Source: a virus (taxonomy: Duplodnaviria > Caudoviricetes). From it: 57,156 nucleotides of DNA. Of this stretch, positions 4,629 to 18,149 are shown one piece after another (positions within the stretch are counted from its first letter, which is position 1; every line of letters starts with the position of its first letter). The notes under the pieces were generated by a model. The model saw only the letters and a list, made by a program, of their open reading frames with translations. It was not told where the DNA came from and made no database searches. The DNA lies in IMG/VR virus record IMGVR_UViG_3300036819_000112, positions 1 through 57,156 of that record; one strand, 5' to 3'. Both the position numbers and the translations under genes were made by a program.

Positions 4629-4835
4629 ATGGACGCCATAGGCGAAGCCCAGAGGAGGATGGAGACGGTCTGGACCGCTGCTCGCCTGGCTGACAGGTGC
4701 TACGACGAGCGGCTCTCCGATGCCCACGGCCTGACGCGGGCCGAATACGTCGGCAAAGCCGTGGTGGCGGCGCTCTATGCCGATATCGGCAACGGCCGGC
4801 CGCCCAACGCCCGCGCGGTGGATGAGGGGAGATGA
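4629..4835 (+). CDS. Hypothetical protein
   Basis: Coupled ORF. Confidence 0.55.
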   Translation: MDAIGEAQRRMETVWTAARLADRCYDERLSDAHGLTRAEYVGKAVVAALYADIGNGRPPNARAVDEGR

Positions 4836-5425
4836 CGATGCACACGAAGGACTTTCTGGCCCAAGAGCTACGTAAGGCTGGCCTGAGCGCGATGGCCGAC
4901 AAGGCAGCGACCGGGTACTACCACGACTACCTCTCACCTCTCGATCTGCCCTGCCAGCAACTCGCGCACGACCTTAAAACCTTCGCCAACGCGCCGTCGC
5001 TGTCCGCGCCGCGCCGACACGAAGTGCAGACGTTGTTGGCGCGGCACATGAACGGGGAATTTGACGCCAGCAAGGAAGAGTCGGAGGCCTGGGCCTCAAG
5101 CGATGAAGGCAAAGAGACCTTCGGCAAGCTGACCGAACAGCAGCCGCCGGAGACTGAGGGGAAAGAGCGGATTGGGCGGCTGGCGATGCGCCACGAAGGC
5201 GAGTTCTGGAACGCCTACTACGCGTTGCCGCAAAGCATGGATCGGGCGGTCTTGATCGGATCGATCCACATGAAGTTCGTCGAGAAAGAGGGGCGCAAGC
5301 AGGCCTTCATGGACCTCATGCGTGAGTGTGCGGCTGACATCATCGAGGCGGCGATCGGCCAGCGGCCCATCTGGCCAAGGGGACCCGAACCGGCGCCGGA
5401 GCACGAGCGCTCGGGGCACGCATGA
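4832..5425 (+). CDS. Hypothetical phage protein (apparently two domains)
   Basis: Good RBS and globular composition; acidic linker QQPPETEGK separates the halves. Confidence 0.7.
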   Translation: MTMHTKDFLAQELRKAGLSAMADKAATGYYHDYLSPLDLPCQQLAHDLKTFANAPSLSAPRRHEVQTLLARHMNGEFDASKEESEAWASSDEGKETFGKLTEQQPPETEGKERIGRLAMRHEGEFWNAYYALPQSMDRAVLIGSIHMKFVEKEGRKQAFMDLMRECAADIIEAAIGQRPIWPRGPEPAPEHERSGHA

Positions 5426-5459
5426 CAGGCCCGGATCACGTCACTTCACCGGCGGCGCG

Positions 5460-5636
5460 ATGAGCGCCTGGCTGCATCGCCTCCAGCACGCCCTTCACTG
5501 GCAGTTTGGCCATGTCGTCAGCGCGCTGGACGATCACGGCACGGTTTGGATCGGCTTTCGGTGCTCGCGGTGTGGCGAGATCACGGGCATCCATGCCAGT
5601 TGGCGGGACAGTCCGCCGCTGGATCGCTTCACATGA
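5460..5636 (+). CDS. Small Zn-ribbon protein
   Basis: CSRC motif; coupled to the next ORF. Confidence 0.55.
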   Translation: MSAWLHRLQHALHWQFGHVVSALDDHGTVWIGFRCSRCGEITGIHASWRDSPPLDRFT

Positions 5637-5851
5637 GCACCTGGCCCAAGCCTACCTGGGAGCCGCTCTGGCTGCGCTGCGGACCGTGCGGCCACGAATG
5701 GGACGACTGGCAGCCATGCCATGTTCCGATCCTGACCTGGACGGCTCATGTCCAGGCGCTGCGCTGCCCGAAGTGCCGAGCAAGGCGGAAGCTGTTCATG
5801 CGTATGACGCCGCTCACAGAGGCCACTACCCAGGCCGGCACGGGAGTCTAG
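5633..5851 (+). CDS. Small Zn-ribbon protein
   Basis: CGPC...CPKC. Confidence 0.6.
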   Translation: MSTWPKPTWEPLWLRCGPCGHEWDDWQPCHVPILTWTAHVQALRCPKCRARRKLFMRMTPLTEATTQAGTGV

Positions 5852-6254
5852 CGGAGCGGGGATCATCCGCCCTGCCAGAAGTTGAGAGAGCAATCGCGAA
5901 ACCGCACACCCGGCAGGTCACCACCCAAAGCCCGCATCTCGCCGCTGGGTAGGGCAGTTCGACGCGGCAGGCGTGCGGAGCGTCAAGGGCAACGTCGATC
6001 GCGCTGCCATTGGGGTAGGCCGAGTCTGCGGGATAGCTCGCTTCCCGATGCTGATCGACCCAATCCACCAGAAACCGCGATTCTGCGACCGGCGCACCAG
6101 GCTCCAGTGACACCGCGCTGAACGCGAGCGGCTGTCCGCGCTGCATCGTCCCAGCCTCAGCCCAGCAGCGCTCATTCTCAAATTCCGGATCGTCAGGTGC
6201 ACCGTCGAAGGCGTCGTCGTGCGGATCGTCAACTCGGTCGGCGGTGTTCTGCAT
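5826..6254 (-). CDS. Cys-rich hypothetical phage protein
   Basis: LPYPAARCG..VVTCRVCG...GRADDPRS..LPC; convergent with the early operon. Confidence 0.6.
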   Translation of the reverse strand: MQNTADRVDDPHDDAFDGAPDDPEFENERCWAEAGTMQRGQPLAFSAVSLEPGAPVAESRFLVDWVDQHREASYPADSAYPNGSAIDVALDAPHACRVELPYPAARCGLWVVTCRVCGFAIALSTSGRADDPRSARLPCRPG

Positions 6255-6679
6255 GCCCCCGATTCTGCCATCGCGAGCGGTGCAGTGGCAACGCGTGGCG
6301 GAGGTGATTCCGCATGCGGATCGCCGATGGACGCGCATAGAATCACTGCACGTCTTCGCATGGAAACAACGGCTGATTGATGTGCGATTTGTCTGCAAAA
6401 ATCGATGCGAAAATTCTGGATAAATAGATACACATCGATGCCGATTTTGATGCGCAGAACGCATGCGCTGGCACACCCCGCCGCACCTCTGCCCATGTCT
6501 ATTTCCCAGGCACGATCCGGTGCTTTTCCGTCTCAGCGCTTGATCGCGGCGCGCGCATAGCGATACAAAGTCGTTGACTATTAGATCGAAACGGCGCTGC
6601 CATCGGCGCTAGAAGCCAACGTTAACGGGGCCGGTTCCCGACTTTGGAACCATGCGCGCCGTGCGGGAGCAATCCAGAC

Positions 6680-7339
6680 ATGGGTGACACTCATTCCGAT
6701 ATAGATCGGACCGCGGAGCCGTGGGAAATCGAAGGCATTAGCCGGCGCACCTGGTATCGGCGCTCTGCCGCCGAGTACAGAGACCTGAACACGAAGCGGG
6801 TCGAGCCGGCTGGTCCAAGGTGGTACTGCGGACGAACGGTGTATGGCGGCGAGCGGCAGGCCGCGGCAGAGTGTCGTTCGGCAGGCTTTGACGTGTTTGC
6901 GCCGACCATCTTCAAACCGGCCACGCGAGCCAGACGCAACGCCGTCGGCGCGATCATCCCCGCCCGCCCGGCCAGCGCGGTACCGCTGTTTCCGAACTAC
7001 ATCTTCTCCCGGTTTCGCGTGATCGATTACTGGCGGTATCGGGGCGATCTGCCGAGTGTGGCCGGCCTCCTCAGCCTCGCTCCCGACGCTCCTACTCCCA
7101 TGCCCGACCGCGCCATCAGCTTGATCCGAGGCATGTGCGGTGCCGACGACTGCTATCACGAGGACGGCGATACGCCGAACACCCTTGTCGGCGCTCTTCT
7201 GCGGCTGCTCAGCGGTCCGTTCAGTGGGTTCGAGGGCATCTGCGATTGGTCAGGGGACGGGAAGGCACGGATGCCGGTCACGTTCTGCGGCCGGCCGTGC
7301 CCTATTACCGTCGATCAGGAGATGGTGGAGGTGGTCTGA
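6680..7339 (+). CDS. NusG-like transcription antiterminator (probable late-gene regulator)
   Basis: NGN motifs WYCGRT..GGERQA, PLFPNYIF; KOW-like LLSGPFSGFEG; upstream of the packaging genes. Confidence 0.85.
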   Translation: MGDTHSDIDRTAEPWEIEGISRRTWYRRSAAEYRDLNTKRVEPAGPRWYCGRTVYGGERQAAAECRSAGFDVFAPTIFKPATRARRNAVGAIIPARPASAVPLFPNYIFSRFRVIDYWRYRGDLPSVAGLLSLAPDAPTPMPDRAISLIRGMCGADDCYHEDGDTPNTLVGALLRLLSGPFSGFEGICDWSGDGKARMPVTFCGRPCPITVDQEMVEVV

Positions 7340-7367
7340 AGCGACGGAAAACCGCCATTTGTCAGAG

Positions 7368-7389
7368 GGTGATAAGAAATATTATCTCC
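7368..7389. promoter_or_regulatory. Candidate recombination/binding site of the adjacent tyrosine recombinase
   Basis: GGTGATAA-gaaata-TTATCTCC: inverted arms with a 6-bp spacer just upstream of the recombinase. Confidence 0.5.
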
Positions 7390-7414
7390 TATTGATATCC
7401 GGAGATCAGTAGCC

Positions 7415-8341
7415 ATGACCAGCGCCCTAGCAGTGCCTGTACGCTCGTCACCTCCCGCTCAGCGGCTGGATACAACCGATGACGCGATGGTTGCACTCTG
7501 GCTTGGGAGATACACCCGTTCGGCTCACACCAGGCGCAGCTACAAAGCGGACGTGGATGCATTCCGCGCTTTTGTCGCCAAACCATTGCCCACGGTCACC
7601 GGGAGCGACATCAATGCATTTGCGTCGAGCCTCGGCCACCTGGCGCCCGCGTCGCAGAGTCGCCGACTGTCGGCAGTCAAGTCGCTGATCGGACTGCTGC
7701 ACCGCCAGGGCCTGATGCCCTTCGATGTCGCCGCGGCGATCCAGCTCCCAGCGATCAAGGACACCTTGATCGAGCGGATCATGACGGAGGAGGCGGTGCA
7801 GCGCCTGCTCTGGGCGGCCGAGGCGCCGCCGCGGTTCTCCCGGATAAACAATCGCACAACGCGATGGGCCAAGCGCAACGCGGCGCTGTTGCGGTTGCTT
7901 TATGGTGCTGGTTTGCGAATCAGCGAGGCGTGCGGCTTGTGCTGGCGCGATCTAACGCCCCGTGATCAGGCCGGCCAGCTGAACGTGCTGGGCAAAGGCG
8001 GCAAGACGCGCCCGGTGCTGCTGACCAAATCACTTTGGGACCGACTCGCCGAGTTGCGAGGCAGTGCCGGCCCGGGCGATTCAGTTTTCAAGTCGCGCGA
8101 AGGTGGCGCATTGGCACCATCGCAGGTCGATCGGATTATGAAAACTGCGGTAAAACGCGCCCAACTACCGCCGGCGGTGTCAGCTCACTGGCTCCGGCAC
8201 GCCCACGCAAGTCATGCCCTCGATCGCGGCGCTCCGGTACATGTCGTGCAAACGACGCTCGGCCATGCGTCGCTGACCACGACCACTCGTTACACTCATG
8301 CGCGGCCTGGCGACAGTAGCGCTAAGTATCTCACGGCATAG
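7415..8341 (+). CDS. XerC/D-like tyrosine recombinase (resolvase type)
   Basis: SAM-like N-domain; GLRISE, GKGGKTR, HWLRHAHASH, LGHASLTTTTRY catalytic residues. Confidence 0.93.
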   Translation: MTSALAVPVRSSPPAQRLDTTDDAMVALWLGRYTRSAHTRRSYKADVDAFRAFVAKPLPTVTGSDINAFASSLGHLAPASQSRRLSAVKSLIGLLHRQGLMPFDVAAAIQLPAIKDTLIERIMTEEAVQRLLWAAEAPPRFSRINNRTTRWAKRNAALLRLLYGAGLRISEACGLCWRDLTPRDQAGQLNVLGKGGKTRPVLLTKSLWDRLAELRGSAGPGDSVFKSREGGALAPSQVDRIMKTAVKRAQLPPAVSAHWLRHAHASHALDRGAPVHVVQTTLGHASLTTTTRYTHARPGDSSAKYLTA

Positions 8342-8350
8342 GTTTCATTC

Positions 8351-9961
8351 GTGGCAGCAGGCTTCAAGACAGGCGGTCGAGTGAAAGGTTCCCTCGACAA
8401 AGGACCGAGGAAGCGGAGGTCCTCTGTGTCTGTAGATGCACATGTCACTACCAGAGTAGTGGCAGCGGGGGCGGGGGCGCCCCCCACCGCGCCCATTATT
8501 CCAGCCTCGCGCCCGGGCGCGCGCGCGAGGACGTCACTGAAAGCCGCTGCAGCGGCCGGTTTGCCGCCACCAGAGGCCGGTTCCATTCTTCCCGTCTCGC
8601 AAGCGGCGGCGGACCCGTCGTTCCCGAAATACCGCACCATGGCAACCGACAAGTTGGTGCCCTACGCGAACAATGCCCGTACCCATTCGAAGGCGCAGAT
8701 TGCCAAGATAGCCGCCAGCATTAAGGAGTTTGGCTTCACCAACCCCGTCCTCACTGACGGCAAGCGTGGCATCATCGCCGGTCACGGCCGAGTCCTTGCG
8801 GCACAGATGCTGGACATGGTCTCGGTGCCGATAATCGAGCTGTCCCACCTGAGCGTGGCCCAGCGGCGAGCTTACATTCTTGCGGACAACCGACTAGCGC
8901 TTGACGCTGGATGGGACGATGAACTGCTGGCGCTTGAGCTCGGTGCGTTGCGCGCTGATGGCTTTGACCTCTCGCTTACCGGTTTTGATTTCAACGAGAT
9001 CGGAATGCTGCTTGGCTCATCGGAGGGTCTTACCGATCCTGACGACGCACCGCCGGCCCCGTCGCAGCCCGTATCGATTGCGGGCGATGTGTGGCTGCTC
9101 GGCGGGCACAGGCTGGCCTGTGGGGACTCTACGGATGCGCGGGTGGTCGCGGCTGCGCTGGGCGGCGCGAAGCCGCATTTGATGGTCACTGATCCGCCCT
9201 ATGGCGTGGGCTACGACGCGAACTGGCGAAATGAGCGCGTGCGGCAGGACGGTTCTCCCGTGGGTGGGCGAGCTGTCGGTAAAGTGGCGAACGACGGGGA
9301 TGCCGACTGGCGCGAGGCGTGGGCGCTGTTTCCCGGCTCGGTCGCTTATGTCTGGCATGCCGGCCTTCATGGAGAGCAGGTGATCAGCAGCCTGGTGGCG
9401 AACGGCTTCAGGATTCGAGCGCAGATCATCTGGGTCAAGACTCGTGCGGTGATCTCGCGGGGTCACTACCATTGGCAGCATGAACCTGCGCTCTACAGCG
9501 TACGCGAGGGGGAAGACGATCAGTGGCGCTTCGTCCCCGAGCACGAGGTGGTCGATTACTCTGTCCGCGAGGGCGAAACCGGGCAATGGCAAGGCGGCCG
9601 CAAGCAGTCGACCGTTTGGAACATTGAGCACATCAAATCCGAAACCGGCCACAGCACCCAGAAGCCGGTCGAGTGCATGCGGCGTCCTATCGAAAACAAT
9701 TCATCTCCCGGGCATGCGGTCTACGACCCCTTCGCCGGCTCCGGTACCACCATCATAGCCGCTGAGATGACCGGCCGCGCCTGCCATGCGATCGAACTCA
9801 GCCCCGCCTATGTCGACGTCGCTATTCTCCGTTGGCAGGCGTTCACCGGCAAAGATGCTGTCCATGGCGAAGACGGACGCACTTTTGCCTCCATCGGTCT
9901 CGAACGGAGCGTACCTCCGCAAGCCGCCCGCACCCGGACCCGCGTCAAGGTTGAAGCGTAG
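8351..9961 (+). CDS. ParB-like domain + N6/N4 DNA methyltransferase
   Basis: PYANNARTHS..IAASIKEFGF..AGHGR..ADNRL; TDPPYG, HSTQKPV, DPFAGSGTT; alternative start at ATG 8639. Confidence 0.9.
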   Translation: MAAGFKTGGRVKGSLDKGPRKRRSSVSVDAHVTTRVVAAGAGAPPTAPIIPASRPGARARTSLKAAAAAGLPPPEAGSILPVSQAAADPSFPKYRTMATDKLVPYANNARTHSKAQIAKIAASIKEFGFTNPVLTDGKRGIIAGHGRVLAAQMLDMVSVPIIELSHLSVAQRRAYILADNRLALDAGWDDELLALELGALRADGFDLSLTGFDFNEIGMLLGSSEGLTDPDDAPPAPSQPVSIAGDVWLLGGHRLACGDSTDARVVAAALGGAKPHLMVTDPPYGVGYDANWRNERVRQDGSPVGGRAVGKVANDGDADWREAWALFPGSVAYVWHAGLHGEQVISSLVANGFRIRAQIIWVKTRAVISRGHYHWQHEPALYSVREGEDDQWRFVPEHEVVDYSVREGETGQWQGGRKQSTVWNIEHIKSETGHSTQKPVECMRRPIENNSSPGHAVYDPFAGSGTTIIAAEMTGRACHAIELSPAYVDVAILRWQAFTGKDAVHGEDGRTFASIGLERSVPPQAARTRTRVKVEA

Positions 9962-10014
9962 CGGTCAACCCGTCAGCAACCAGGTCAACCGATACCAGAG
10001 TCAGGGACCGCCGC

Positions 10015-10452
10015 ATGCCCCTAGACGATACCCATCTCGTCAGTGTGTCCGAAGCCGTTACATTCGCATTTGCGGAGATCGGGAAAGACCATCTCCCGGC
10101 CACTCGCAGCACCAAGGAAAAGCTCGCCCTCGAGTACTGGGTTTCCTCGGTGCTTTTGCGACTGGCCGAGGCCAGGCGGGATAAGGCCAAGAGGGCGGCC
10201 GTCCATGGAAACGTGCTGCCGGATACCTTAGCCAACCCGTTCCCGATCGGAACGGCGGAGGCGGTCTACGCCGGGGCGTTGGTGACAATCGGCCTCAAGG
10301 TTGTGCCGCAGGCCGAGAGGCTGAATGTGGCAGGATTGACGGCCTACCTGGAGAAGAACGGGGTCAGGCCCGCGCTGCTCAAGCGGGCGGTCAAGCGCAA
10401 CACCGAGACATTCGCCGGCGCGCACATCTACACGGCGCTGCTGACGGTCTGA
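10015..10452 (+). CDS. Hypothetical protein
   Basis: RBS, globular ORF. Confidence 0.7.
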   Translation: MPLDDTHLVSVSEAVTFAFAEIGKDHLPATRSTKEKLALEYWVSSVLLRLAEARRDKAKRAAVHGNVLPDTLANPFPIGTAEAVYAGALVTIGLKVVPQAERLNVAGLTAYLEKNGVRPALLKRAVKRNTETFAGAHIYTALLTV

Positions 10453-10456
10453 AGGG

Positions 10457-10933
10457 ATGGCGGGGCGAAAGGCTTTCGTGCCGACCGATGAGCAGCGCGC
10501 CCGGGTGCGATCCATGGCCTCCGCCGGCATCGATGAAGGCACGTCCGGAAACGGCAGGAACGGTGGCGCGACGTTGGCGGAAATCTGCGCGGTCATCGAC
10601 GTCAGTGAAAAGACGCTGCGGCGGGCGTTCAAAACCGAGCTGAAGACAGCGTTCTATCTTGCGAAAGACCAGATGCGTCGGAGCCTGTTCCAGCAGGGCA
10701 CCGGGCAACAAGAGCGACCGGAGGAGCGAGACGAGCGTGGCAGGGTAATCCGTCCGCGGCAGCGATACGTCCCACCCAACCCTACCGCGACGATCGCCTG
10801 GCTGGAGTTCTACGGCGGCGCGGTGAAAACCCAACGCACGGAACACACCGGCCAGGTCAACACACGGAACCTTACGGATGAACAGCGCGACGCTCGAATC
10901 GCTGAGCTCCTCCGTAAAGCAGGAGCTGCTTGA
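10457..10933 (+). CDS. Terminase small subunit
   Basis: PTDEQRARV..HTH (ICAVIDVSEKTLRR); C-terminal EHTG..LTDEQ; overlaps TerL. Confidence 0.8.
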   Translation: MAGRKAFVPTDEQRARVRSMASAGIDEGTSGNGRNGGATLAEICAVIDVSEKTLRRAFKTELKTAFYLAKDQMRRSLFQQGTGQQERPEERDERGRVIRPRQRYVPPNPTATIAWLEFYGGAVKTQRTEHTGQVNTRNLTDEQRDARIAELLRKAGAA

Positions 10934-12389
10934 GCTACTTGAAGAAAGGCACCGTGCGCTCTGCCGGCGCAGCTTTCTGGCCTGGTGCATCGAAGCCTTG
11001 GCGCCGTTCGGGCAGACCCCCGCGGCGCACCATCGTCTGCTGATCTCCGAACTGCAGGCGGTCGCCGATGGGCTATGCGACCGGCTGATGATCTTCATGC
11101 CGCCGGGTTCGGCGAAATCACGCTACGCGACGGTGCTGTTTTCCGCCTGGCTGTTGTCGCGCCGGCCGAACTTCCAACTGATCGGAGCAAGCCACACCTC
11201 GGAACTGGCGGACGATTTCTCCGGCAAGATCCATGCAATCGTCAGCGAGAACACTGCAACGCTCGGCTATGGCTTGGCCAAGAAGGCGGTCGGACGATGG
11301 TATACGACGAACGGCGGGGCCTATCTCGCGGCGGGCGTGCGGGCTGGTATCCCCGGCTTCCGTGCTGATGCCGCGATCATCGACGATCCGGTGAAGGGGC
11401 GCGCCGCAGCCGACTCCGCGCCGGACCGCAAGCAGGTCTGGGACTGGTACAACGGAGACCTGGAGCGGCGGCTAACTCCGCGGTCATCCGTCGTGCTCAT
11501 GCAGACCAGATGGCACGAAGATGACCTGGCCGGGCGGCTGCTGGAGACCGAGGGGCATCGCTGGCGGGTGCTGAGGCTACCGGCAGAGGCAGAAGCGAAC
11601 GACCCGCTTGGCCGTCAGCCGGGCGAATGGCTGTGGTCGGACGGCACCTATGGGTTCGGCCAAGGCCTTGCTCAGATCAAGCAGTCGCTCTCCGAACGCG
11701 GCGCCAGCCGCGAGTGGACAGCGCAATACCAGCAACGACCGGTTCCCGAGACCGGCGACTACTTCCAGCGCGACTGGTTGCGTTCTGTCCCGAGTTTGCC
11801 GCCGCGCACTGCCCTGCGCGTGTTCGGCGCGTCGGACTATGCCGTGACCGACGATGGCGGGGATTTCACGGTGCATATCGTGGTCGGGGTCGATAGCGAC
11901 GATCGGCTCTACGTGCTGGATCTCTGGCGCCAGCAGACGGCGTCGGATCAGTGGGTCGAGGCGTTCTGCGACATGGTGGTGCGCTGGAAACCGATGGGCT
12001 GGGCCGAAGAGGCGGGGCAGATTCGTGCCGGCATTGGGCCCTGGCTGAACCGGAGATCACGCGAGCGGCGGGCGTTCGTGGCCAGACAGACATTTCCGAC
12101 GCGAGGCGGCGACAAAAGTGTGCGCGCGCAGAGCATTCGCGGGCGGGCTGCGCTGAGCGGGATCTATGTCGCAGCCGACGCGCCCTGGCGAGCCGACTTT
12201 GAAGCGGAGCTGCTGTCGTTTCCGGCCGGTAAGCATGACGACCAGGTCGACGCGCTTGGCCTGATCGGCCAGTTGCTTGATGTCATGCTGCCACCGCCCG
12301 GAGCGAAACCGCCGGCGCCTCCGGCGGATAGTTGGGACCGGGCATTCCGGCGCGGCGATGATTCTGGCGACGGCTGGAAAGTGACGTAG
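10878..12389 (+). CDS. Terminase large subunit
   Basis: Walker A MPPGSAKS, Walker B IIDDP, QTRWHEDDL, nuclease HDDQVDA. Confidence 0.95.
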   Translation: MNSATLESLSSSVKQELLELLEERHRALCRRSFLAWCIEALAPFGQTPAAHHRLLISELQAVADGLCDRLMIFMPPGSAKSRYATVLFSAWLLSRRPNFQLIGASHTSELADDFSGKIHAIVSENTATLGYGLAKKAVGRWYTTNGGAYLAAGVRAGIPGFRADAAIIDDPVKGRAAADSAPDRKQVWDWYNGDLERRLTPRSSVVLMQTRWHEDDLAGRLLETEGHRWRVLRLPAEAEANDPLGRQPGEWLWSDGTYGFGQGLAQIKQSLSERGASREWTAQYQQRPVPETGDYFQRDWLRSVPSLPPRTALRVFGASDYAVTDDGGDFTVHIVVGVDSDDRLYVLDLWRQQTASDQWVEAFCDMVVRWKPMGWAEEAGQIRAGIGPWLNRRSRERRAFVARQTFPTRGGDKSVRAQSIRGRAALSGIYVAADAPWRADFEAELLSFPAGKHDDQVDALGLIGQLLDVMLPPPGAKPPAPPADSWDRAFRRGDDSGDGWKVT

Positions 12390-12400
12390 GGGGCCATCGT

Positions 12401-14431
12401 TTGAGCGATCTGATGTCCCTGGCCACGCCGCAAGGTCCGACCATTGATGCGCAGCAAGGCTGGCCGGGCGACCTCGACGCGCTTCTGGCGCGGCTGATCC
12501 GCGATTTCCAGGAGGCCGAGGAAGCTACCGCCGATGCACGGGCTGAGGCCGAGCGGTCCCGGGATTTCCGCGACGGCCGCCAGTGGACCGCGGAAGAGGC
12601 CGCGATTCTTCGCAAGCGGCGCCAGCCGATCGTCTGGAACAACATCATCGGGCGCAAGATCGAGTTGCTGCGGGGGCTGGAGCGCCGCGGCAGGTCCGAT
12701 CCCGAGGCCTACCCGAGAAATCCGGTGAACAATGTCCGTGCCGACGCCGCAACCCAGGCGCTGCGCTACATCGCCGACGAGAACCGCTTCGACGTCATCC
12801 GCAGCGCCGTCTACGACCAGATGCTGGTCGAGGGGTTCTCCGGAGCCGAGGTGATCGTCGAGGAACAGCAGGACGGCGACGGCTATGACGTCGTCATCAA
12901 CCACATTCCGTGGGAGCGGCTGTACTACGATCCACATTCCCAGCATCCGGCGTTCACCGATGCCAGCTATCTGGGGATGGTGATCTGGATGGATTTCGAC
13001 GATGCCGCCGATATGTATCCGGGCTGTGAAGACATCCTGGATTCAACCCTCGAAAGCGCCCGCTCGGACACCTATGGCGACAAGCCCATCGCAACCTGGG
13101 GCGATCGAAAGCGGCGCAGGGTCCGCGTCGCACAGCATTGGTGGAAGAAGCGGCGCGACTGGTGGACCGCGACTTTCACCAAAGGCGGGTTTCTCGGCGC
13201 GCCGATGTTGTCGCCCTACAAAGACCGCCACGGCAATGCGACCTGCCCGATCATCCTTCGCTCCGCGCGGATCGACCGCGACAACAACCGGTTCGGCATC
13301 GTGCGTGACCTGGTGCCGTTACAGGAAAGCATCAACAAGCGCGAAAGCAAGCTGCTGCATTCGCTTTCGGTCAATCAGATCATCATGGAGGAAGGCGCGG
13401 TCGACGACGTCGACCACGTCCGCGCGGAGGCTGCCAAGCCGGACGGCGTGATGATCCACAACAAGGATTTCGAGTTCAAGCTGCAGAAGGACCAGGCGGA
13501 GATCCAGGGCCAGTTCGAGTTGCTCCAGTACTCCGTGGCTCAGATGCAGATGCACGGCCCCAACGCGGCGATGAGCGGCAAGGATCCGCGGGAGCAGTCG
13601 GGCAGGGCCATTATCGCCCAGCAGTCCGGCGGCCAGGTCGAGAACGAGCCCATGGCCGATGCGCTGCGGCAGTGGACGCACAAGATTTACGAGGCCGCCT
13701 GGATGCGGGTGCGGCAGTTCTGGACCGGGCCGCGCTGGATCCGGGTGACCGACAGCGACAAGAACACCCAGTTCGTCGGCTTGAACCGGCCGGTGACGAT
13801 CGCCGATCTGCTTGGCCAACTCGACCGGACGCAGCCAATCGATTCACAACTGAAGGGTTTGGATCCAGGTGACGCGGCGGCCGTGCAGTTCGGCCTGCAG
13901 CTTCCGCCGGGCGACCCGCGGCTGCAGATGGCGGTGCGGATCGAGAACGACATCGGCGATATGGACTGCTCGATCACGGTGGAAGAGGGGCCGGACAACC
14001 CCACGATGCAGGCGGAGCAGTTCCAGACCATCATGCAACTGCCGCCGCAGATCCTGATGCAGTTTCCGCCCGAGTTCATCATCCAGGCCTCGGCGCTGCG
14101 CAACAAGGACCAGCTGATCAAGCTCCTGGAGCAACACCAGCAAAGCCAGGCGCAGGCTGCGGAGGCGGCCAAGGCCAATCAAACGGCGATGCAAACGGCT
14201 CAGGTCGCAAAAACCCAGGCCGATGCGGCTGACAAGCGCGCTCAGGCGCTGCAGCGCATGCACGGCATCGCGGCCGATCATGCGGGGATGCCGGGGCAGG
14301 ACGCGCAGCAGGCGGCCGATGTCGCGAATACCCAAGCTGGGACCCTGGAGATGATGCACGGCATGGCGATGGATCACGCCGCCGCGCAACAGCCTCCGGT
14401 CAATCCGCTGTCAGAGCCATCCCCCCCTTAA
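12401..14431 (+). CDS. Portal protein (P22-like)
   Basis: Follows TerL; DFRDGRQW, N.I..KI..LRGLE, GIVRDL...Q..INKR, SGRAI motifs. Confidence 0.9.
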   Translation: MSDLMSLATPQGPTIDAQQGWPGDLDALLARLIRDFQEAEEATADARAEAERSRDFRDGRQWTAEEAAILRKRRQPIVWNNIIGRKIELLRGLERRGRSDPEAYPRNPVNNVRADAATQALRYIADENRFDVIRSAVYDQMLVEGFSGAEVIVEEQQDGDGYDVVINHIPWERLYYDPHSQHPAFTDASYLGMVIWMDFDDAADMYPGCEDILDSTLESARSDTYGDKPIATWGDRKRRRVRVAQHWWKKRRDWWTATFTKGGFLGAPMLSPYKDRHGNATCPIILRSARIDRDNNRFGIVRDLVPLQESINKRESKLLHSLSVNQIIMEEGAVDDVDHVRAEAAKPDGVMIHNKDFEFKLQKDQAEIQGQFELLQYSVAQMQMHGPNAAMSGKDPREQSGRAIIAQQSGGQVENEPMADALRQWTHKIYEAAWMRVRQFWTGPRWIRVTDSDKNTQFVGLNRPVTIADLLGQLDRTQPIDSQLKGLDPGDAAAVQFGLQLPPGDPRLQMAVRIENDIGDMDCSITVEEGPDNPTMQAEQFQTIMQLPPQILMQFPPEFIIQASALRNKDQLIKLLEQHQQSQAQAAEAAKANQTAMQTAQVAKTQADAADKRAQALQRMHGIAADHAGMPGQDAQQAADVANTQAGTLEMMHGMAMDHAAAQQPPVNPLSEPSPP

Positions 14432-14447
14432 CCCCAGAGGAAACCCG

Positions 14448-14936
14448 ATGAAACGTCTCCTGCTCGCGAGCGTGGCCGCGCTGGCGCTCGCCGTCTCCGC
14501 GCATGCGCAGACTACCTCCGCCCCGGTTGGCCAGACCGCCGGCGGCGCGATCAATCAGAACGCGTTCAACAACAACAGCGACGCCGCTGGCTTCAACCAG
14601 ATGTCGTTGACCCCTGGGCTTGTGGTGCCCTCGACATCGACGGCGCAGGCCACCTGGGTGAACGGCGCGGTCGCCACGGGAACGCTGATCACCACGAAAA
14701 CCACGGTGATAACGACCTGTTCCGGCACCACGGGCGTGACGCTTCCCGCGATTCAGCGCTTCGAGCCGATCACCATCATGAACCGCTCCGGCGGCTCGTG
14801 TCTGGTATGGCCGTCGATCGGGGCAACCGTGGAGACGGCGCTGGGCACCGATGGCGCCTCAAACGCTCCATTCACCCAGTTGACCAATACCGACGTCACG
14901 TATCGACCCATCACCGGAACCCGCTGGCTACAGTAA
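14448..14936 (+). CDS. Signal-peptide protein, possible capsid decoration
   Basis: MKRLLLASVAALALAVSAHA-Q; GVTLP..ITIMN..LVWP beta-rich body with two Cys. Confidence 0.75.
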   Translation: MKRLLLASVAALALAVSAHAQTTSAPVGQTAGGAINQNAFNNNSDAAGFNQMSLTPGLVVPSTSTAQATWVNGAVATGTLITTKTTVITTCSGTTGVTLPAIQRFEPITIMNRSGGSCLVWPSIGATVETALGTDGASNAPFTQLTNTDVTYRPITGTRWLQ

Positions 14937-14974
14937 CCCCAACCCCATACCGCGCAGCACGGGGCCGATGCTGC

Positions 14975-15059
14975 TTCCCGCCGCCGGGGAAATCGGGCGC
15001 GATCAACGCGTAACGACCGGGTCGCACCCGGGAAAGCCGACGCCGGGCTCAATCGGGCA
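14975..15059 (+). ncRNA. Tandem pseudoknot-like cis-RNA motif (copies 1-2) in the scaffold leader
   Basis: TTCCC-GCCGCCG-GGGAA..CGGGCG and AGCC-GACGCCG-GGCT..CGGGCA. Confidence 0.65.
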
Positions 15060-15071
15060 GAAAGTACCACC

Positions 15072-15893
15072 ATGAGTGATATTGATAGCTTCCTGACCGG
15101 AGACGATCCCGGGCAGGCGGAGGCTGAACAGCCGTCCGAACCACAGGCTCCGGAAGCGACGCCGGCTGAGGCAGAAACCGAGGACAAGCCGGTCCCTGCC
15201 AAGGAGGAGGCCGATGACAGCCAACCTGAGGATGTCGTCGGCCTCAAGAGCGCTTTGCAGGCCGAGCGGGCGCGCCGGCGCGACTACAAGGGCGAAAGGG
15301 ACCGTCTGCAAGGCGAGAGGGACGCGCTCATGGCGCAGATGGAGGTGTACCGCAAGGCTCCTCCTGCACCTCCTGCACCCCCGTCCGTGCCACAGGCTGT
15401 CGCGCCGCCGGAGCGGGTGCCCAATCCGGTCGAGGATCCCGAAGGCTATGCGGCCTGGCAGGAGCAGCGATTCGAGAAACGGCTGTTCAATGAGCGATTG
15501 AACATCTCCGAACGGATGCTGCGCGCGAGGACCGATTCGGCGGACGTCGATGCCAAGATCGCGGTGTTTCGAAAGGCCGCCGCTGATAATCCCGGACTTC
15601 GCGCGCAACTCGGAAGCCATCCCGACCCCTACCAGTTCGCCTACGACACCGGTGCGAGGTTTCTGGCGATGGAGGAAATCGGCACCGATCCGGCCGCCTA
15701 TCGAGCCAAGGTCGAAACTGAACTGCGCGCGAAGATTGAGGCGGAATTGGCCGGCACCCAACCATCCGCACCCGCACCTCGCGTCACTCTACCGCAAAGC
15801 CTCGGCACCGCGCGATCCGCCGGACCGCGTTCGGGGCCGCCGATCAACGTGGCGGAGAGTTTCGACGACATCCTGGCGCGTCCACGGAAGTAG
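15072..15893 (+). CDS. Capsid scaffolding protein
   Basis: Acidic N-terminus, ALQAERARR coiled coil, PNPVEDPEGY, HPDPYQFAY; between portal and capsid. Confidence 0.85.
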   Translation: MSDIDSFLTGDDPGQAEAEQPSEPQAPEATPAEAETEDKPVPAKEEADDSQPEDVVGLKSALQAERARRRDYKGERDRLQGERDALMAQMEVYRKAPPAPPAPPSVPQAVAPPERVPNPVEDPEGYAAWQEQRFEKRLFNERLNISERMLRARTDSADVDAKIAVFRKAAADNPGLRAQLGSHPDPYQFAYDTGARFLAMEEIGTDPAAYRAKVETELRAKIEAELAGTQPSAPAPRVTLPQSLGTARSAGPRSGPPINVAESFDDILARPRK

Positions 15894-16425
15894 GTAATTC
15901 AAAGCGGGCGAACGCGCCGTGGAGGCGCGTGGCTGCTTCGCAATACGCGGCATGGGCCAGTTGCTGGGTCGGGAACAGACCGAGGTTACTTTTCCGGCCG
16001 CTAACCCAAATCTCGGCAGACCAAGCCGCTCGTCTGGTGTTCCAATGAACGCCCTTCAACCCGCTGTTGTTGTCGCAACGGACGCGCATGTTCATTTTAT
16101 TTTGGGATGATGTGGCCGCTCTAAGGTTCCGCCAACGGGTGTTGCCGGGATCGTTGTCGATGTGATCAATTTCAAACGGAGGCCACGCGCCGGTCATCCA
16201 GAGCCACGCTAGGCGGTGGGCATGATATAGCCAACCGTTTACCGCGATTTGGATGTAGCCTCGGTTGGTCACGCTTCCAGCTACCCGGCCAGCGTTGCGG
16301 GTGTTCCATTCTCGTCTGGCATTTGGCCTATATCGCCAAGTGAATAAGCCGGCCTGTGGATCATAGTCTAGCGCCGCACGAAGTTGGTCCGCCGTCAGCG
16401 GATCGTCTACACGAGGTTTAACCAT
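15844..16425 (-). CDS. HNH homing endonuclease with AP2-like C-terminus
   Basis: LDYDPQAGLFTW, AHRLAW, IDHID...N...NLR, SGLKGV, AAYCEAA..LHGAFAR. Confidence 0.9.
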   Translation of the reverse strand: MVKPRVDDPLTADQLRAALDYDPQAGLFTWRYRPNARREWNTRNAGRVAGSVTNRGYIQIAVNGWLYHAHRLAWLWMTGAWPPFEIDHIDNDPGNTRWRNLRAATSSQNKMNMRVRCDNNSGLKGVHWNTRRAAWSAEIWVSGRKSNLGLFPTQQLAHAAYCEAATRLHGAFARFELPTSVDAPGCRRNSPPR

Positions 16426-16552
16426 GATCTGCTCCCGAGCAGTGATTGGTAAGAGGTCCGGATCGCTGTTTCCGCAGCGCCGGGCCTCGCCATCGATACC
16501 ACCATTTGTCGCCGCTCGCAGGCCGTTTCGGTCTCGCGGCTTCACGTTTTCA

Positions 16553-16647
16553 CCTGCCGCCGAGGGCCGCAAGGCAACGGGCGATCTAGCCTCCCGGAAG
16601 TCGGACTCGGGGACCGAACATCGTCGCCGGATGGGTTTTGCCGGGCG
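16553..16647 (+). ncRNA. Tandem pseudoknot-like cis-RNA motif (copies 3-4) in the capsid leader
   Basis: CCT-GCCGCCG-AGG..CGGGCG and CATC-GTCGCCG-GATG..CGGGCG. Confidence 0.65.
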
Positions 16648-16696
16648 TTTCGCAATACACCGCCCCCTCTTACTCCATCAGGAAGGATATCGTGCT

Positions 16697-17806
16697 ATGG
16701 CCGATATGAATATCACTTCGGCACGGGCCGGCTTAACGCCGACCCTGTGGGACAAGATGTTTTTCGCCGAATACATCAGGGCGAACCGGTTCAAGAAGTA
16801 CATGGGAACCGACGAAAATTCTATGATACAAATCAAGGACAGCTTGACCACCAAAAACGGTGACAGCGTGAATTTCGCCGCCGTCCGCCGCCTTGTGGGT
16901 GCCGGGGTCACTGGCAATACCGTGCTTGAGGGCAACGAAGAAATCCTCGACCAGCGCTCGATGAAACTGGCCGTAGCCCCGATTCGCCATGCGGTGGCGG
17001 TCTCCGACTGGGATGAGCAGAAATCGACCATCGAGCTACGGGACGCGGCGAAAACCGCGCTCAAAAACTGGTCGATGGAAAAGCTGCGCAACGACATCAT
17101 CATCTCGCTGTCGAGTGTCGGCGGCATCCCGTACGCCACCGCCACCTCGACGCAGCGCAACCTTTGGCTCGCGAGCAACTCCGACCGCGTCCGGTTCGGC
17201 GCCGCGGCGGCGAACTTCTCCTCCGGCGTCATGGCCACCGCGCTGGCAACGCTCGACAACACCGCCGACAAGATGACCGGAGCGTTCCTGTCGCTGTGCA
17301 AGCGTCAGGCGCAGACCGCGTCGCCGCATATCCGCCCGATCATGACCAACGACACCAACGACGAAGAGTGGTTTGTCGCTTTCCTGCCGTCGCTGGTGTT
17401 CCGCGATTTCAGGAACGACCCGGCGGTGCTGGCGGCCAACAAGGACGCTCGCCCGCGGGAGACCAGGTGGATGGACAATCCCATGTTCTCCGGCGGCGAC
17501 ATGGTCTGGGACGGGATCATTGTGCGGGAAATCCCCGAACTGCCGGTCCTGACCGGTGTCGGAACCGCCGGGATCGATGCGGCGGCCTCGTTCCTCTGCG
17601 GTGCCCAAGCGGTTGGCGCGGCCTGGGCGCAACGTCTCCGCACGACGACCAATGTCCGCGACTACGGCTACTTCCACGGTGTCGGTATTCAGGAGATGAG
17701 GGGCGTGGGCAAATTGCAGTTCGGCCGCGACGCAGCAGTGGATACGACCACAGAAGTCGATCAAGGGGTGTTCACGATGTTCACCGCGGCAGTGGCGGAC
17801 GTTTAA
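16697..17806 (+). CDS. Major capsid protein (N4-gp56/DUF4043-like)
   Basis: GVTGNTVLEGNEE, RHAV, NPMFSGG..WDGIIVREIP, FLCGAQA, DYG...G motifs; strong RBS. Confidence 0.9.
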   Translation: MADMNITSARAGLTPTLWDKMFFAEYIRANRFKKYMGTDENSMIQIKDSLTTKNGDSVNFAAVRRLVGAGVTGNTVLEGNEEILDQRSMKLAVAPIRHAVAVSDWDEQKSTIELRDAAKTALKNWSMEKLRNDIIISLSSVGGIPYATATSTQRNLWLASNSDRVRFGAAAANFSSGVMATALATLDNTADKMTGAFLSLCKRQAQTASPHIRPIMTNDTNDEEWFVAFLPSLVFRDFRNDPAVLAANKDARPRETRWMDNPMFSGGDMVWDGIIVREIPELPVLTGVGTAGIDAAASFLCGAQAVGAAWAQRLRTTTNVRDYGYFHGVGIQEMRGVGKLQFGRDAAVDTTTEVDQGVFTMFTAAVADV

Positions 17807-17822
17807 CTAGGAGAACACTTGC

Positions 17823-18149
17823 ATGCCGCGGTTCATCGCGCGCCCGGTTGAAGTCGAGGCGCATCAGTATGACGGCACCACCGTCTGCATGCCGGACGAT
17901 TTCCGCCGCGCGCTGATCCGCCATCTTCCGAACGGGACGGTTGAGTTTTTGACCGGCGATGGTCCACGGCCCTGCAAGTACCATGACTGGGTGGTGCGGG
18001 GTCCGGACGGCCTGCTCTCGGTCATCCGCGACGCCACCTTTGAGGCGATGTTCACGCCTCTGGTCACCGCCTCTCCGCCTGAAGCACTGCAGCCTGCGCC
18101 GCCGATCACGGCCAAGCGCGCTGGAAAGAAGGACGTTACCCATGCCTGA
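17823..18149 (+). CDS. Hypothetical protein (PGDYG-like fold)
   Basis: PVEVEAHQY...DWVVRGPDG...FEAMF. Confidence 0.65.
   Translation: MPRFIARPVEVEAHQYDGTTVCMPDDFRRALIRHLPNGTVEFLTGDGPRPCKYHDWVVRGPDGLLSVIRDATFEAMFTPLVTASPPEALQPAPPITAKRAGKKDVTHA

What the first reader, a model, noticed from the sequence alone, without database searches (positions are those of the whole stretch)
14975..16647. Four-copy covarying pseudoknot RNA motif, in tandem pairs before the scaffold and capsid genes
Seen: consensus stem-[GNCGCCG]-stem-linker-CGGGC(G/A) at 14975-14999 (TTCCC/GGGAA), 15035-15059 (AGCC/GGCT), 16553-16583 (CCT/AGG, with a GCC-GCAA-GGC hairpin in the linker) and 16619-16647 (CATC/GATG). The stem sequence differs in every copy yet always pairs, while the loop and 3' tail are conserved; loop CGCC can pair with tail GGCG (H-type pseudoknot). 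Each pair has a hairpin between its copies and ends just before the RBS. Established: P22 scaffolding protein autoregulates its synthesis post-transcriptionally, and NusG paralogs can be loaded at RNA elements. Inference: a cis-regulatory RNA that sets scaffold:capsid stoichiometry, a loading site for the phage NusG paralog, or an unrecognised riboswitch-like aptamer. I do not recognise it as a named family.
Basis: partly seen in the sequence, partly recalled or inferred. Interest (0 to 1): 0.8.

Follow-up and report, generated by a model that had tools for sequence, protein, structure and literature searches.

The report
Tandem mini-pseudoknot leader of phage head genes
The four repeats are real copies of a small, uncatalogued folded RNA unit that hundreds of tailed phages place in tandem at the start of their scaffold and capsid messages, probably to secure the very high output of these two proteins.

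Summary
Observation confirmed. The pattern stem-GNCGCCG-stem-linker-CGGGCR occurs exactly four times in this 57-kb phage genome, at the stated places and all on the gene strand (0.24 expected). It matches no Rfam 15 family.

The unit occurs in 82 of 87 loci that encode a related capsid protein, in 1-5 tandem copies and almost only on the gene strand. It also occurs in cultured phages Pam5, Pan3 and CBW1004C-Prop1, and before a second capsid family, PF25209. The stems covary freely, while the loop and tail are nearly invariant. Loop G4/tail C5' changes to A/U in three independent units and never to a mismatch, which supports an H-type pseudoknot.

Arrays always precede scaffold and/or capsid genes. 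They tolerate about 620 nt between array and start codon. They often abut a terminator or a promoter. A NusG paralog is present in only 2 of 7 complete genomes.

Best reading: a cis-acting leader RNA that acts on the whole head-gene message, such as a stability roadblock. A docking site for an unknown reader is a close rival. The mechanism is unproven.

Earlier notes of this scan report tandem mini-pseudoknot capsid leaders in other phages. Whether they are the same motif was not checked.

The parts
14975..14999 (+). Unit 1: S1 14975-14979/14987-14991, loop 14980-14986 (GCCGCCG), linker AT, tail CGGGCG 14994-14999
   Evidence: model R1 35.0 bits
15035..15059 (+). Unit 2: S1 15035-15038/15046-15049, loop GACGCCG, linker CAAT, tail CGGGCA. 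The last tail base is a variant, so one predicted pseudoknot pair is lost.
   Evidence: 29.1 bits; C3.A6' mismatch listed
16553..16583 (+). Unit 3: S1 16553-16555/16563-16565, loop GCCGCCG, linker carrying an inserted GCC-GCAA-GGC hairpin (16566-16575), tail CGGGCG 16578-16583
   Evidence: 24.4 bits; the same insertion is in the Rhodopila MAG locus L086
16619..16647 (+). Unit 4: S1 16619-16622/16630-16633, loop GTCGCCG, linker GGTTTTGC, tail CGGGCG 16642-16647
   Evidence: 24.8 bits
14937..15071 (+). Scaffold-gene leader (stop of the 162-aa ORF to the scaffold ATG), holding units 1-2 and a spacer with possible hairpins
15072..15893 (+). Scaffolding protein gene (273 aa)
   Evidence: Lies between portal and capsid. 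29% identical over its full length to the annotated scaffolding protein of phage Pam5, E 9e-20. tblastn finds homologs at the same place in relatives. No Pfam or PHROG family.
15844..16425 (-). HNH_3 + AP2 homing-endonuclease gene, inserted antisense between the scaffold gene and the capsid-leader array. Not part of the motif, but it shows the array is separable from its neighbours.
   Evidence: PF13392 at 1.8e-14, phrog_99 at 8.5e-62; variable insertion side in relatives
16426..16696 (+). Capsid-gene leader, holding units 3-4. Its first ~75 nt are the complement of the HNH gene's own leader hairpin.
16697..17806 (+). Major capsid protein gene (369 aa, PF13252 Phage_capsid_3)
   Evidence: PF13252 at 8.7e-53; phrog_334 at 1.7e-69

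Best explanation
Each copy is one unit of a conserved, uncatalogued cis-acting RNA, a compact H-type pseudoknot of about 21-37 nt.

Anatomy of a unit:
- A 3-6 bp stem S1 of free sequence.
- A 7-nt loop G-Y-C-G-C-C-G.
- An A/U-rich linker.
- A 3' tail C-G-G-G-C-G whose GGCG pairs with loop CGCC to form S2.

Phages with this head module string 1-5 units together at the 5' boundary of the scaffold/capsid message. That boundary lies after the portal gene, after a terminator, after a promoter or after the scaffold gene.

The array acts on the message as a whole, not by masking the ribosome-binding site. Most likely the units are self-folding, mechanically robust obstacles. They would shield the head-gene segment of the late transcript from 5'-end-dependent decay (RNase E entry or scanning, RNase J). 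Scaffold and capsid protein would then be made in large excess over the upstream portal and terminase.

Shown: existence, strand, fold, conservation, exclusive association with head genes, and independence from distance to the start codon.
Inferred: that the effect is on mRNA survival, and that no dedicated reader is needed.
For: Reality and RNA nature
- There are 4 of 4 hits on the gene strand in the window.
- 82 of 87 capsid-homolog loci carry the unit.
- 263 of 267 model hits at E<=1 lie on the gene strand.
- S1 covaries. Pair 5-17 reads CG 58, GC 42, UA 6, AU 3, GU 3. Pair 7-15 reads CG 81, UA 23, UG 5, AU 3. The covariation score is 0.33 against 0.116 when shuffled, and 0 of 500 shuffles reach it.
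- Without any stem requirement, 144 of 231 distinct loop+tail contexts on the gene strand have a stem of 3 or more pairs. The figure is 2 of 46 on the other strand and 90 of 1459 for loops without a tail.

Pseudoknot
- Among 132 units (112 canonical plus 20 that I added), loop-4/tail-5' reads G-C 128, A-U 3, G.U 1, with no mismatch. Loop-3/tail-6' reads C-G 130, U.G 1, C.A 1.
- The A-U units have unrelated stems: L024/L048, L189 and a further one in L254.
- A control scan for A4 with C5' gave 0 stem-validated units beside a canonical unit in 120 stretches.
- The variant loop always matches its own 3' tail, not the tail upstream.
- The linker is 70% A+T in a 64% G+C genome, with A at position -2 in 81 of 112 units.
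- The linker tolerates inserted hairpins.

Place
- In 7 complete genomes (window, G001-G005, Pam5) the units occur only in head-gene leaders.
- In 74 of 88 further arrays a scaffold and/or capsid homolog follows on the same strand.
- Of the rest, L136 and L160 precede PF13252 capsids and L109 and L172 precede PF25209/Mu-gpT-like capsids.

Action at a distance
- An antisense HNH gene sits between the array and the capsid start in L008, L009, L025, L028, L059-L063 and L075. The array is then about 620 nt from the ATG and still has 3-4 intact units.

Boundary position
- 12 of 137 distinct arrays have an intrinsic terminator within 110 nt upstream. Eight of these end 6 nt or less before unit 1. 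Background is 0.4%.
- 5 of 137 have a strong sigma-70-like promoter 37-57 nt upstream, against 1.1% background. An example is TTGACA-N18-TAGCAT in L181.

No conserved dedicated reader found
- The window shares only portal, scaffold, capsid, adaptor and tail genes with G001-G005.
- The hosts named in the records span Alphaproteobacteria, Gammaproteobacteria, Polyangiaceae and a cyanobacterium.

Precedent
- Small loop-to-3'-tail pseudoknots, often in tandem, block 5'-3' exoribonucleases without protein, including bacterial RNase J1 (PMC5760640 and bioRxiv 10.1101/262683, passages read).
Against: - No transcript data exist for this phage, so no 5' end, processing site or half-life is known.
- If only mechanical stability mattered, S2 should covary as freely as S1. 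Instead loop and tail are almost invariant across capsid identities from 84% down to about 33%. Positions outside the proposed pairs are conserved too: G1, G7, C1', G2', A at -2, U after the tail. This is what a sequence-specific reader or a ligand pocket would produce.
- Loop-7 and tail-1' co-vary only loosely: G/C 121, U/A 4, A/U 1, but G.A 3 and A.A 3.
- No conserved 3' stabilising hairpin follows the capsid gene in the window or in most of the 33 relatives inspected.
- Whole-leader folding energy is no better than shuffles (z +1.37 and -0.48).
- S1 of 5-6 bp with a linker of 2-3 nt is tight for a classical H-type geometry.
- A terminator directly upstream of the most highly needed genes is not explained by the stability model alone.
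Confidence: 0.4

Rival explanations
1. The units are docking sites for a sequence-specific protein. One candidate is a head-module protein (scaffold, capsid or portal) that feeds back on its own message, as P22 scaffolding protein does post-transcriptionally. The other is a universal host RNA-binding factor. Tandem units would give cooperative binding that tunes translation or decay of the head-gene message.
For: - Loop, tail and junction bases are nearly invariant while S1 is free. This is the classic signature of a protein operator.
- The commonest arrangement in distant relatives is two units 2-5 nt apart, which fits a dimeric reader.
- In portal-array-scaffold layouts the last tail lies 12-40 nt from the scaffold start.
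- The only genes the window shares with five complete relatives are head and tail genes.
- Post-transcriptional autoregulation of P22 scaffold (Casjens & Adams 1985; Wyckoff & Casjens 1985) is known to me only from titles in the reference list of PMC5529062.
Against: - The same unit precedes a different capsid family (PF25209) and a 305-aa gene of no family, with no detectable homolog of the window's scaffold or portal nearby. A head-module reader would therefore have to be shared across modules.
- Arrays about 620 nt from the capsid start stay intact. This excludes simple RBS occlusion there.
- The hosts named in the records span several phyla.
- The scaffold has no Pfam or PHROG RNA-binding domain.
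- P22 itself has no such leader.
Confidence: 0.3
2. The array is a co-transcriptional signal that makes RNA polymerase termination-resistant. It would act either directly (as the HK022 put RNAs do) or by loading a factor such as the phage NusG paralog (as the LoaP leader hairpin does). The long late operon downstream would then be transcribed to the end.
For: - It acts at a distance and sits at the start of the head/tail transcription unit, often just after a promoter or terminator.
- It is tandem and strand-specific.
- The window encodes a NusG-like protein upstream of the late genes.
- A conserved RNA polymerase surface would explain the invariance across hosts.
Against: - A NusG-like gene was found in only 2 of 7 complete carriers (window and G003). 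The profile used was built from just two sequences, so distant paralogs could be missed.
- The terminators seen lie upstream of the array, where it cannot act.
- In the window no terminator-like site was found on the + strand between 14300 and 17000.
- The put and LoaP comparisons are recalled, not tested.
Confidence: 0.12
3. Each unit is a minimal ligand-binding aptamer, a riboswitch-like sensor of the preQ1-I or guanidine-III size class. It would couple capsid synthesis to a universal metabolite.
For: - It has a hairpin, an A-rich tail and 3'-end pairing to the loop, like preQ1-I (recalled).
- Junction bases outside the helices are conserved.
- It recurs across host phyla.
Against: - No Rfam match, even at E<=10.
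- No terminator or RBS-sequestering expression platform; the distance to the start codon ranges from 12 to about 620 nt.
- Up to 5 copies in a row.
- At 21-30 nt there is little room for a pocket.
- Found only before head genes.
Confidence: 0.07
4. It is a DNA-level signal, not an RNA: a protein-binding site, a promoter element, a single-strand hairpin, or a conserved target exploited by the neighbouring HNH homing endonuclease.
For: - HNH genes are repeatedly inserted right next to arrays, on either side.
- The two conserved boxes are 13-17 bp apart in most units.
Against: - The stems covary while their sequence is free, which duplex-DNA recognition does not predict.
- The orientation is always that of the downstream genes.
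- Among near-perfect stems, G.T wobbles outnumber A.C by 11 to 3.
- Loop and tail change together.
- Most arrays have no HNH gene nearby.
Confidence: 0.04

Closest known systems
Compact H-type pseudoknots of luteovirus frameshift sites (e.g. BWYV); recalled from memory, not tested here
   Same: Size (about 26-28 nt). Short G+C-rich S1, 2-nt first loop, 3-5 bp S2, A-rich last loop suited to minor-groove triples. High sequence conservation for a tiny fold.
   Different: Here the units lie in non-coding leaders (or at most over the 3' end of a small upstream ORF), in tandem, and I noted no slippery heptamer. They are phage DNA-encoded mRNA elements, not frameshift stimulators.
Exoribonuclease-resistant RNAs (xrRNAs) of flaviviruses and dianthoviruses (PMC5760640; bioRxiv 10.1101/262683; passages read)
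   Same: A stem-loop whose loop pairs with a 3' single-stranded tail. They work without protein, often occur in tandem, and depend on a conserved specific fold. A flaviviral xrRNA stops bacterial RNase J1.
   Different: The xrRNAs are 44-70 nt and form a ring around their own 5' end. No ring topology or nuclease resistance has been shown here. No bacterial or phage xrRNA is known to me.
preQ1-I riboswitch aptamer (Rfam RF00522) and guanidine-III (ykkC-III); architecture recalled
   Same: Minimal H-type pseudoknots of 30-40 nt with an A-rich tail and a G+C-rich loop-tail helix. Tandem copies occur.
   Different: No Rfam hit at E<=10. The conserved bases differ, there is no expression platform, and arrays hold up to 5 units only before head genes.
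Autogenous operators of phage structural or abundant proteins: the T4 gene 32 leader pseudoknot (recalled) and post-transcriptional autoregulation of P22 scaffolding protein (titles seen in the reference list of PMC5529062)
   Same: A phage mRNA leader element that controls the output of a protein needed in large amounts. A pseudoknot acts as nucleation site in T4.
   Different: No binding protein is identified here. P22 has no leader of this kind. The array also works far from the RBS.
Leader RNAs that modify RNA polymerase: HK022 put, lambda nut, the LoaP leader hairpin (all recalled)
   Same: Small promoter-proximal hairpins that act in cis over long distances on a long operon.
   Different: No association with a NusG paralog (2 of 7 genomes). 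No downstream terminator was identified in the window.
Other tandem hairpin or mini-pseudoknot arrays in capsid leaders noted earlier by this scan (e1-3482143, e1-5348251, e1-6280230, e1-6103936; AI notes, unchecked)
   Same: Tandem small covarying units fill the leader of scaffold or capsid genes.
   Different: They lie in other phage groups and mostly have other loop sequences. Whether any is this motif could not be checked: sequence look-ups found no related window.

Membership tests
Any Rfam 15 family | Covariance-model score at or above the family's gathering threshold | tested here: not met
   0 hits on the whole window at gathering thresholds. In 14850-16750 at E<=10 there were only 5 weak, unrelated hits, none on the units.
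H-type pseudoknot (structural class) | A hairpin stem supported by covariation | tested here: met
   All 5 stem pairs show changes on both sides. Score 0.33 against 0.116 shuffled, 0 of 500 shuffles reach it. Control free of the stem requirement: 144 of 231 against 2 of 46.
H-type pseudoknot (structural class) | Loop bases pair with a 3' single strand, supported by covariation | tested here: met
   G4-C5' becomes A4-U5' in three units with unrelated stems (L024/L048, L189, L254). No A4.C5' unit was found. The other single changes are wobble-compatible, except C3.A6' in window unit 2. Few events; two of the four pairs never vary.
H-type pseudoknot (structural class) | Loop lengths compatible with the geometry | tested here: inconclusive
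   The first loop is 2 nt and the linker is A-rich. However, 12 of 112 units combine a 5-6 bp S1 with a 2-3 nt linker. The outer S1 pairs may therefore open.
preQ1-I / guanidine-III riboswitches | Family consensus, plus an expression platform (terminator or RBS sequestration) | tested here: not met
   No Rfam hit. No + strand terminator-like site in 14300-17000. Variable distance to the start codon.
NusG-paralog (LoaP-type) loading element | Co-occurrence with a NusG paralog in the same genome | tested here: not met
   A NusG-like gene is present in the window and G003. It is absent by jackhmmer from G001, G002, G004, G005 and Pam5. The genome-wide PF02357 search is unreliable because it missed the window's own gene.
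xrRNA | [quoted passage not shown] | not testable with these tools
   Only the loop-to-3'-tail pseudoknot and the tandem arrangement are shared.
P22-type scaffold autoregulation operator | An RNA target in the scaffold message bound or sensed by free scaffolding protein | not testable with these tools
   P22 has only 13 nt between genes 1 and 8, and genes 8 and 5 abut. The element is therefore not conserved in P22. Binding could not be tested.

The most novel reading that the evidence does not exclude
The units are the long-postulated RNA partner in head assembly. By docking portal and/or scaffold subunits on the very message that is producing scaffold and capsid protein, the tandem pseudoknots would nucleate procapsids co-translationally. 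That would help ensure one portal vertex per shell. An obligate portal-mRNA interaction was proposed for P22 by Bazinet, Villafane & King (1990), as cited in PMC5529062 (passage read).
Probability: 0.05. Interest if true: 0.95.

Novelty: new variant of a known kind. Interest (0 to 1): 0.72.

Why it matters
How tailed phages make hundreds of capsid and scaffold copies but only a dozen portals from one late transcript is poorly understood outside a few model phages.

This motif is a compact (about 25 nt), deeply conserved RNA unit. It marks the start of the head-gene message in hundreds of uncultured phages and in at least three cultured ones. It crosses capsid families and, going by the hosts named in the records, several host phyla.

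It belongs to no RNA catalogue I could search, so it offers a new handle for three purposes:
- Annotating head-gene expression units in metagenomic phages.
- Testing whether bacteria-infecting viruses use nuclease-blocking pseudoknots as RNA viruses of eukaryotes do.
- Building very small portable mRNA-expression or stability modules.

Earlier notes of this scan suggest that tandem mini-pseudoknot leaders before capsid genes are a general phage theme. This family, with its fixed loop-tail helix and cultured carriers, is a good entry point for experiments.

Tried and rejected
- **Rfam.** Nothing at gathering thresholds on the whole window. Nothing relevant at E<=10 in the region. The best hit, symR at 25 bits against a gathering score of 61, lies on the HNH leader hairpin and not on the units.
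- **Global folding.** The two leaders fold no better than shuffles (z +1.37 and -0.48). The signal lies in small local units, not in a large fold.
- **Spacer hairpin.** RNAalifold on 5 relatives gave a weak structure that conflicts with the one I read by eye. Left unresolved.
- **NusG link.** The PF02357 genome search found it in 1 of 5 genomes. The same tool missed the window's own gene, so I repeated the test with phmmer and jackhmmer on all stop-to-stop ORFs. Only G003 has a homolog.
- **Host copies.** The model was run on 5 MAG genomes and hit only the phage-like contigs already known, plus one further contig of G009. Only 150 of 3,400-18,000 candidates per genome were scored, so this is weak.
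- **Strand test by wobble pairs.** The outer pairs were uninformative. For the inner pairs, G.U outnumbered A.C by 11 to 3, which is weak support.
- **3' stabiliser after the capsid gene.** Not general among 33 distinct downstream regions, and absent in the window.
- **P22.** It has no leader of this kind.
- **Sequencing runs.** No RNA holder listed.
- **Literature.** Searches with 'RNA motif / major capsid protein / covariation / phage / upstream' (0 papers), 'structured RNA / capsid / bacteriophage / pseudoknot / leader / tandem' and 'pseudoknots / major capsid / leader / phage / noncoding RNA / metagenom' listed no title that suggested this motif. I read only those listings (titles, and the starts of abstracts). 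Supplements were not seen. Subscription journals are mostly not held.
- **Papers not held.** The two P22 autoregulation papers are not held. I saw only their titles in a reference list.
- **Recalled only.** RNase E scanning obstacles, papBA/puf-type segmental mRNA stability, BWYV, preQ1-I, guanidine-III, put, nut, LoaP and the T4 gene 32 operator were seen in no call.
- **Earlier findings.** Look-ups by sequence, by place and by motif words found no related window.
- **Rows dropped.** Before alignment A1 I removed 3 of 115 distinct regex hits (L074:1797, L084:1072, L080:4039) as off-context or atypical. Alignment A2 misaligned several variant units, so I counted its pseudoknot pairs with my own stem-anchored parser and not with the count of structure pairs. 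The 20 units added to A2 were hand-picked.
- **Doubtful hit.** L239 lies in coding-like sequence and is not counted as an independent A-U event.
- **Not used.** Structure prediction, complex prediction and the large protein searches.


Full report
**What is in the window**

The window is a complete 57,156-bp phage genome with 64% G+C. Around the finding the genes run as follows:
- Large terminase, 10878-12389.
- P22-type portal, 12401-14431 (PF16510).
- A 162-aa ORF, 14448-14936.
- A 273-aa scaffolding protein, 15072-15893. It is 29% identical over its full length to the annotated scaffold of phage Pam5 (E 9e-20).
- An HNH_3+AP2 homing-endonuclease gene on the opposite strand, 15844-16425.
- The major capsid protein, 16697-17806 (PF13252).

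A scan for stem (3 or more pairs), GNCGCCG, stem, up to 14 nt, then CGGGCR finds these four and nothing else on either strand. Dinucleotide shuffles give 0.24 matches on average, and 0 of 300 reach four. Because the pattern was written after seeing the copies, I give more weight to an independent test. A covariance model built from relatives scores the four at 24-35 bits and everything else in the genome at 14.8 bits or less. Rfam 15 has no matching family.

**It is a conserved element**

IMG/VR holds at least 176 stretches that encode a relative of the capsid protein. I examined the best 80 (58-84% identity) and 7 loci from GTDB genomes.
- 82 of these 87 loci carry the unit on the gene strand, mostly as 2-5 tandem copies just upstream of the capsid gene. 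In some a second array lies upstream of the scaffold gene. Only 2 regex hits lie on the other strand.
- Of the 5 loci without a regex hit, L005 and L027 have model hits. L020 and L031 show a variant unit with an inserted hairpin. L085 has no upstream sequence.
- The model finds 267 hits at E<=1, and 263 of them are on the gene strand.
- In five complete 41-42 kb relatives, and in the cultured phage Pam5, the units occur only in the head-gene leader.

Of these, 88 have at least two stem-validated units on one strand.
- In 74 of the 88, a scaffold and/or capsid homolog (33-68% identity) follows on the same strand. Typically the order is portal, array, scaffold, capsid.
- Among the remainder, L136 and L160 precede distant PF13252 capsids. 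L109 and L172 precede a PF25209/Mu-gpT-like capsid. L181 and L190 precede a 305-aa protein of no family.
- Cultured carriers are Pseudanabaena phages Pam5 and Pan3 (two units each before the scaffold gene) and phage CBW1004C-Prop1 (one unit).

**It is an RNA hairpin with a pseudoknot**

In 112 distinct units the stem next to the loop changes freely but stays paired. Pair 5-17 reads CG 58, GC 42, UA 6, AU 3, GU 3. Pair 7-15 reads CG 81, UA 23, UG 5, AU 3. The covariation score is 0.33 against 0.116 for shuffles, and 0 of 500 shuffles reach it.

These units had been selected for a stem of 3 or more pairs, so I repeated the test without that requirement. Of 231 distinct loop+tail contexts on the gene strand, 144 have such a stem. 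The figures are 2 of 46 on the other strand and about 6% of loops without a tail.

The loop (G, Y, C, G, C, C, G) and the tail (C, G, G, G, C, G, usually followed by U) are almost invariant. The linker is 70% A+T, with A at position -2 in 81 of 112 units. It can hold an extra hairpin, as in window unit 3.

The proposed loop-tail helix (C3-G6', G4-C5', C5-G4', C6-G3') has little variation to test, but what there is fits.
- G4-C5' is replaced by A4-U5' in units with unrelated stems in L024/L048, in L189 and in L254. The homologous unit of the relative L016 is canonical.
- The changed loop always goes with its own 3' tail.
- Single changes are wobble-compatible: U3.G6' in L011, G4.U5' in L046.
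- The only mismatch is C3.A6' in window unit 2.
- A control scan for A4 with an unchanged C5' found none beside a canonical unit in 120 stretches.
- Loop-7 and tail-1' also change together, but not strictly as a base pair.

I therefore regard the H-type pseudoknot as supported by a few independent events, not as proven.

**Where it sits and what that says about mechanism**

Three observations place the array at the 5' boundary of the head-gene expression unit and show that it does not need to be near the start codon.
- *HNH insertions.* The antisense HNH gene is inserted upstream of the array in the window, L003, L016, L024, L047 and L082. In L008, L009, L025, L028, L059-L063 and L075 it lies between the array and the capsid start. 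There 3-4 intact units lie about 620 nt from the ATG.
- *Terminators.* 12 of 137 distinct arrays have an intrinsic terminator within 110 nt upstream. Eight of them end 6 nt or less before the first unit. Background is 0.4% of random segments (examples).
- *Promoters.* 5 of 137 have a strong sigma-70-like promoter 37-57 nt upstream, against 1.1% background. In L181 an 8-bp outer stem encloses the first unit next to the predicted start.

The distance from the last tail to the next start codon ranges from 12 nt (window scaffold, Pan3), through 35-66 nt (most capsid leaders), to about 620 nt.

These facts argue against simple masking of the ribosome-binding site and against a riboswitch with a local expression platform. 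They fit an element that acts on the transcript as a whole, through survival or processing of the message or through the elongating polymerase.

**Who reads it?**

The window does encode a NusG-like protein (PF02357, 37 bits). Of the six other complete carriers only G003 has a homolog. The quicker genome search gave the same answer but failed its positive control. The window shares only portal, scaffold, capsid, adaptor and tail genes with the five complete relatives, not even the large terminase. The unit also occurs before another capsid family. The hosts named in the records include Acetobacteraceae, Rhodopila, Steroidobacteraceae, Polyangiaceae and a cyanobacterium. MAG binning and host assignments are as deposited.

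A dedicated phage regulator is therefore unlikely.

I favour the last option at about 0.4: a self-contained mechanical obstacle that protects the head-gene segment from 5'-end-dependent decay.
- It explains the action at a distance, the boundary position, the variable copy number and the host independence.
- It has a precedent in the small loop-to-tail pseudoknots of viral xrRNAs. These work in tandem without protein and stop even bacterial RNase J1.

The main argument against it is the near-invariance of loop, tail and junction bases. This looks like recognition by a specific partner, so a protein-docking operator is a close rival (0.3). Polymerase modification (0.12), a riboswitch (0.07) and DNA-level roles (0.04) follow.

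**Comparison with what is known, and novelty**

No Rfam family matches, and three full-text searches found no description. In architecture the unit resembles the luteovirus frameshift pseudoknots and the preQ1-I aptamer (both recalled). In logic it resembles xrRNAs or phage autogenous operators. It meets the defining features of none of these families that I could test.

Earlier notes of this scan describe tandem hairpin or mini-pseudoknot arrays in capsid leaders of other phages. They suggested to me that a structural, reader-free role should be considered. I could not check whether any of them is this same motif.

I class the finding as a new variant of a known kind: a structured cis-acting mRNA leader. 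It is well supported as an element. Its mechanism is open, and it can be tested directly in cultured phages.

Noticed in passing
window 15844-16500 (minus strand); also L003, L005, L016, L022, L024, L033, L047, L069, L078, L082: The HNH_3+AP2 homing-endonuclease gene carries its own conserved leader: a long covarying hairpin (GAGGnCCGG...CCGGnCCTC) followed by TGACCA-like sequence and the RBS. The cassette is found antisense before the array, antisense between array and capsid gene, or in sense after the capsid gene. Its ORF overlaps the 3' end of the scaffold gene by 50 nt (15844-15893). The weak Rfam symR-like hit lies on this hairpin (25 bits, E 0.054).
   Followed up: partly
window 6644-7339 (+): NusG-like gene (PF02357, 37 bits) upstream of a tyrosine recombinase gene (7415-8341; PF00589, 1.8e-30). 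A homolog occurs in only one of six other complete motif-bearing genomes.
   Followed up: yes
L022, L041, L048, L069, L076, L080; also L004, L033, L078 (0-2 nt before the first unit): A conserved flank YAGCCGTGCC(GTGCC) lies between the scaffold stop codon and the first unit of many capsid-leader arrays. It might be a processing site, a start site or part of the fold. The window lacks it.
   Followed up: no
L089, L107, L110, L112, L126, L129, L150, L179, L188; L223 2516-2539: Canonical intrinsic terminators end 0-15 nt (8 of these 10 within 6 nt) before the first pseudoknot unit, between the portal and scaffold genes. This occurs in several lineages, including the cultured phage CBW1004C-Prop1. 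It is counter-intuitive before the most highly expressed genes.
   Followed up: partly
L030 2004-2090; L079 2055-2141: A short stretch like capsid residues 12-40 (62-66% identity) lies between the portal and scaffold genes. It may be a remnant of recombination or of a homing event.
   Followed up: no
L014, L015, L042, L043 leaders (last ~90 nt before the capsid start): The last hairpin with the GCCGCCG loop has no 3' tail. It is instead preceded by CGGGCTG(T)A, a tail-like box on the 5' side. This is a possible variant topology.
   Followed up: no
L227 (Pseudanabaena phage Pam5, whole record): Pam5 has 62.8% G+C and carries a GcrA-like 'cell cycle regulator' gene. From memory, GcrA is otherwise alphaproteobacterial. 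I did not examine the host assignment.
   Followed up: no
tool behaviour: The six-frame family search for PF02357 found no candidate in the window's own genome, although hmmscan on the translated ORF scores 37 bits. Negative results from that route need a positive control.
   Followed up: yes
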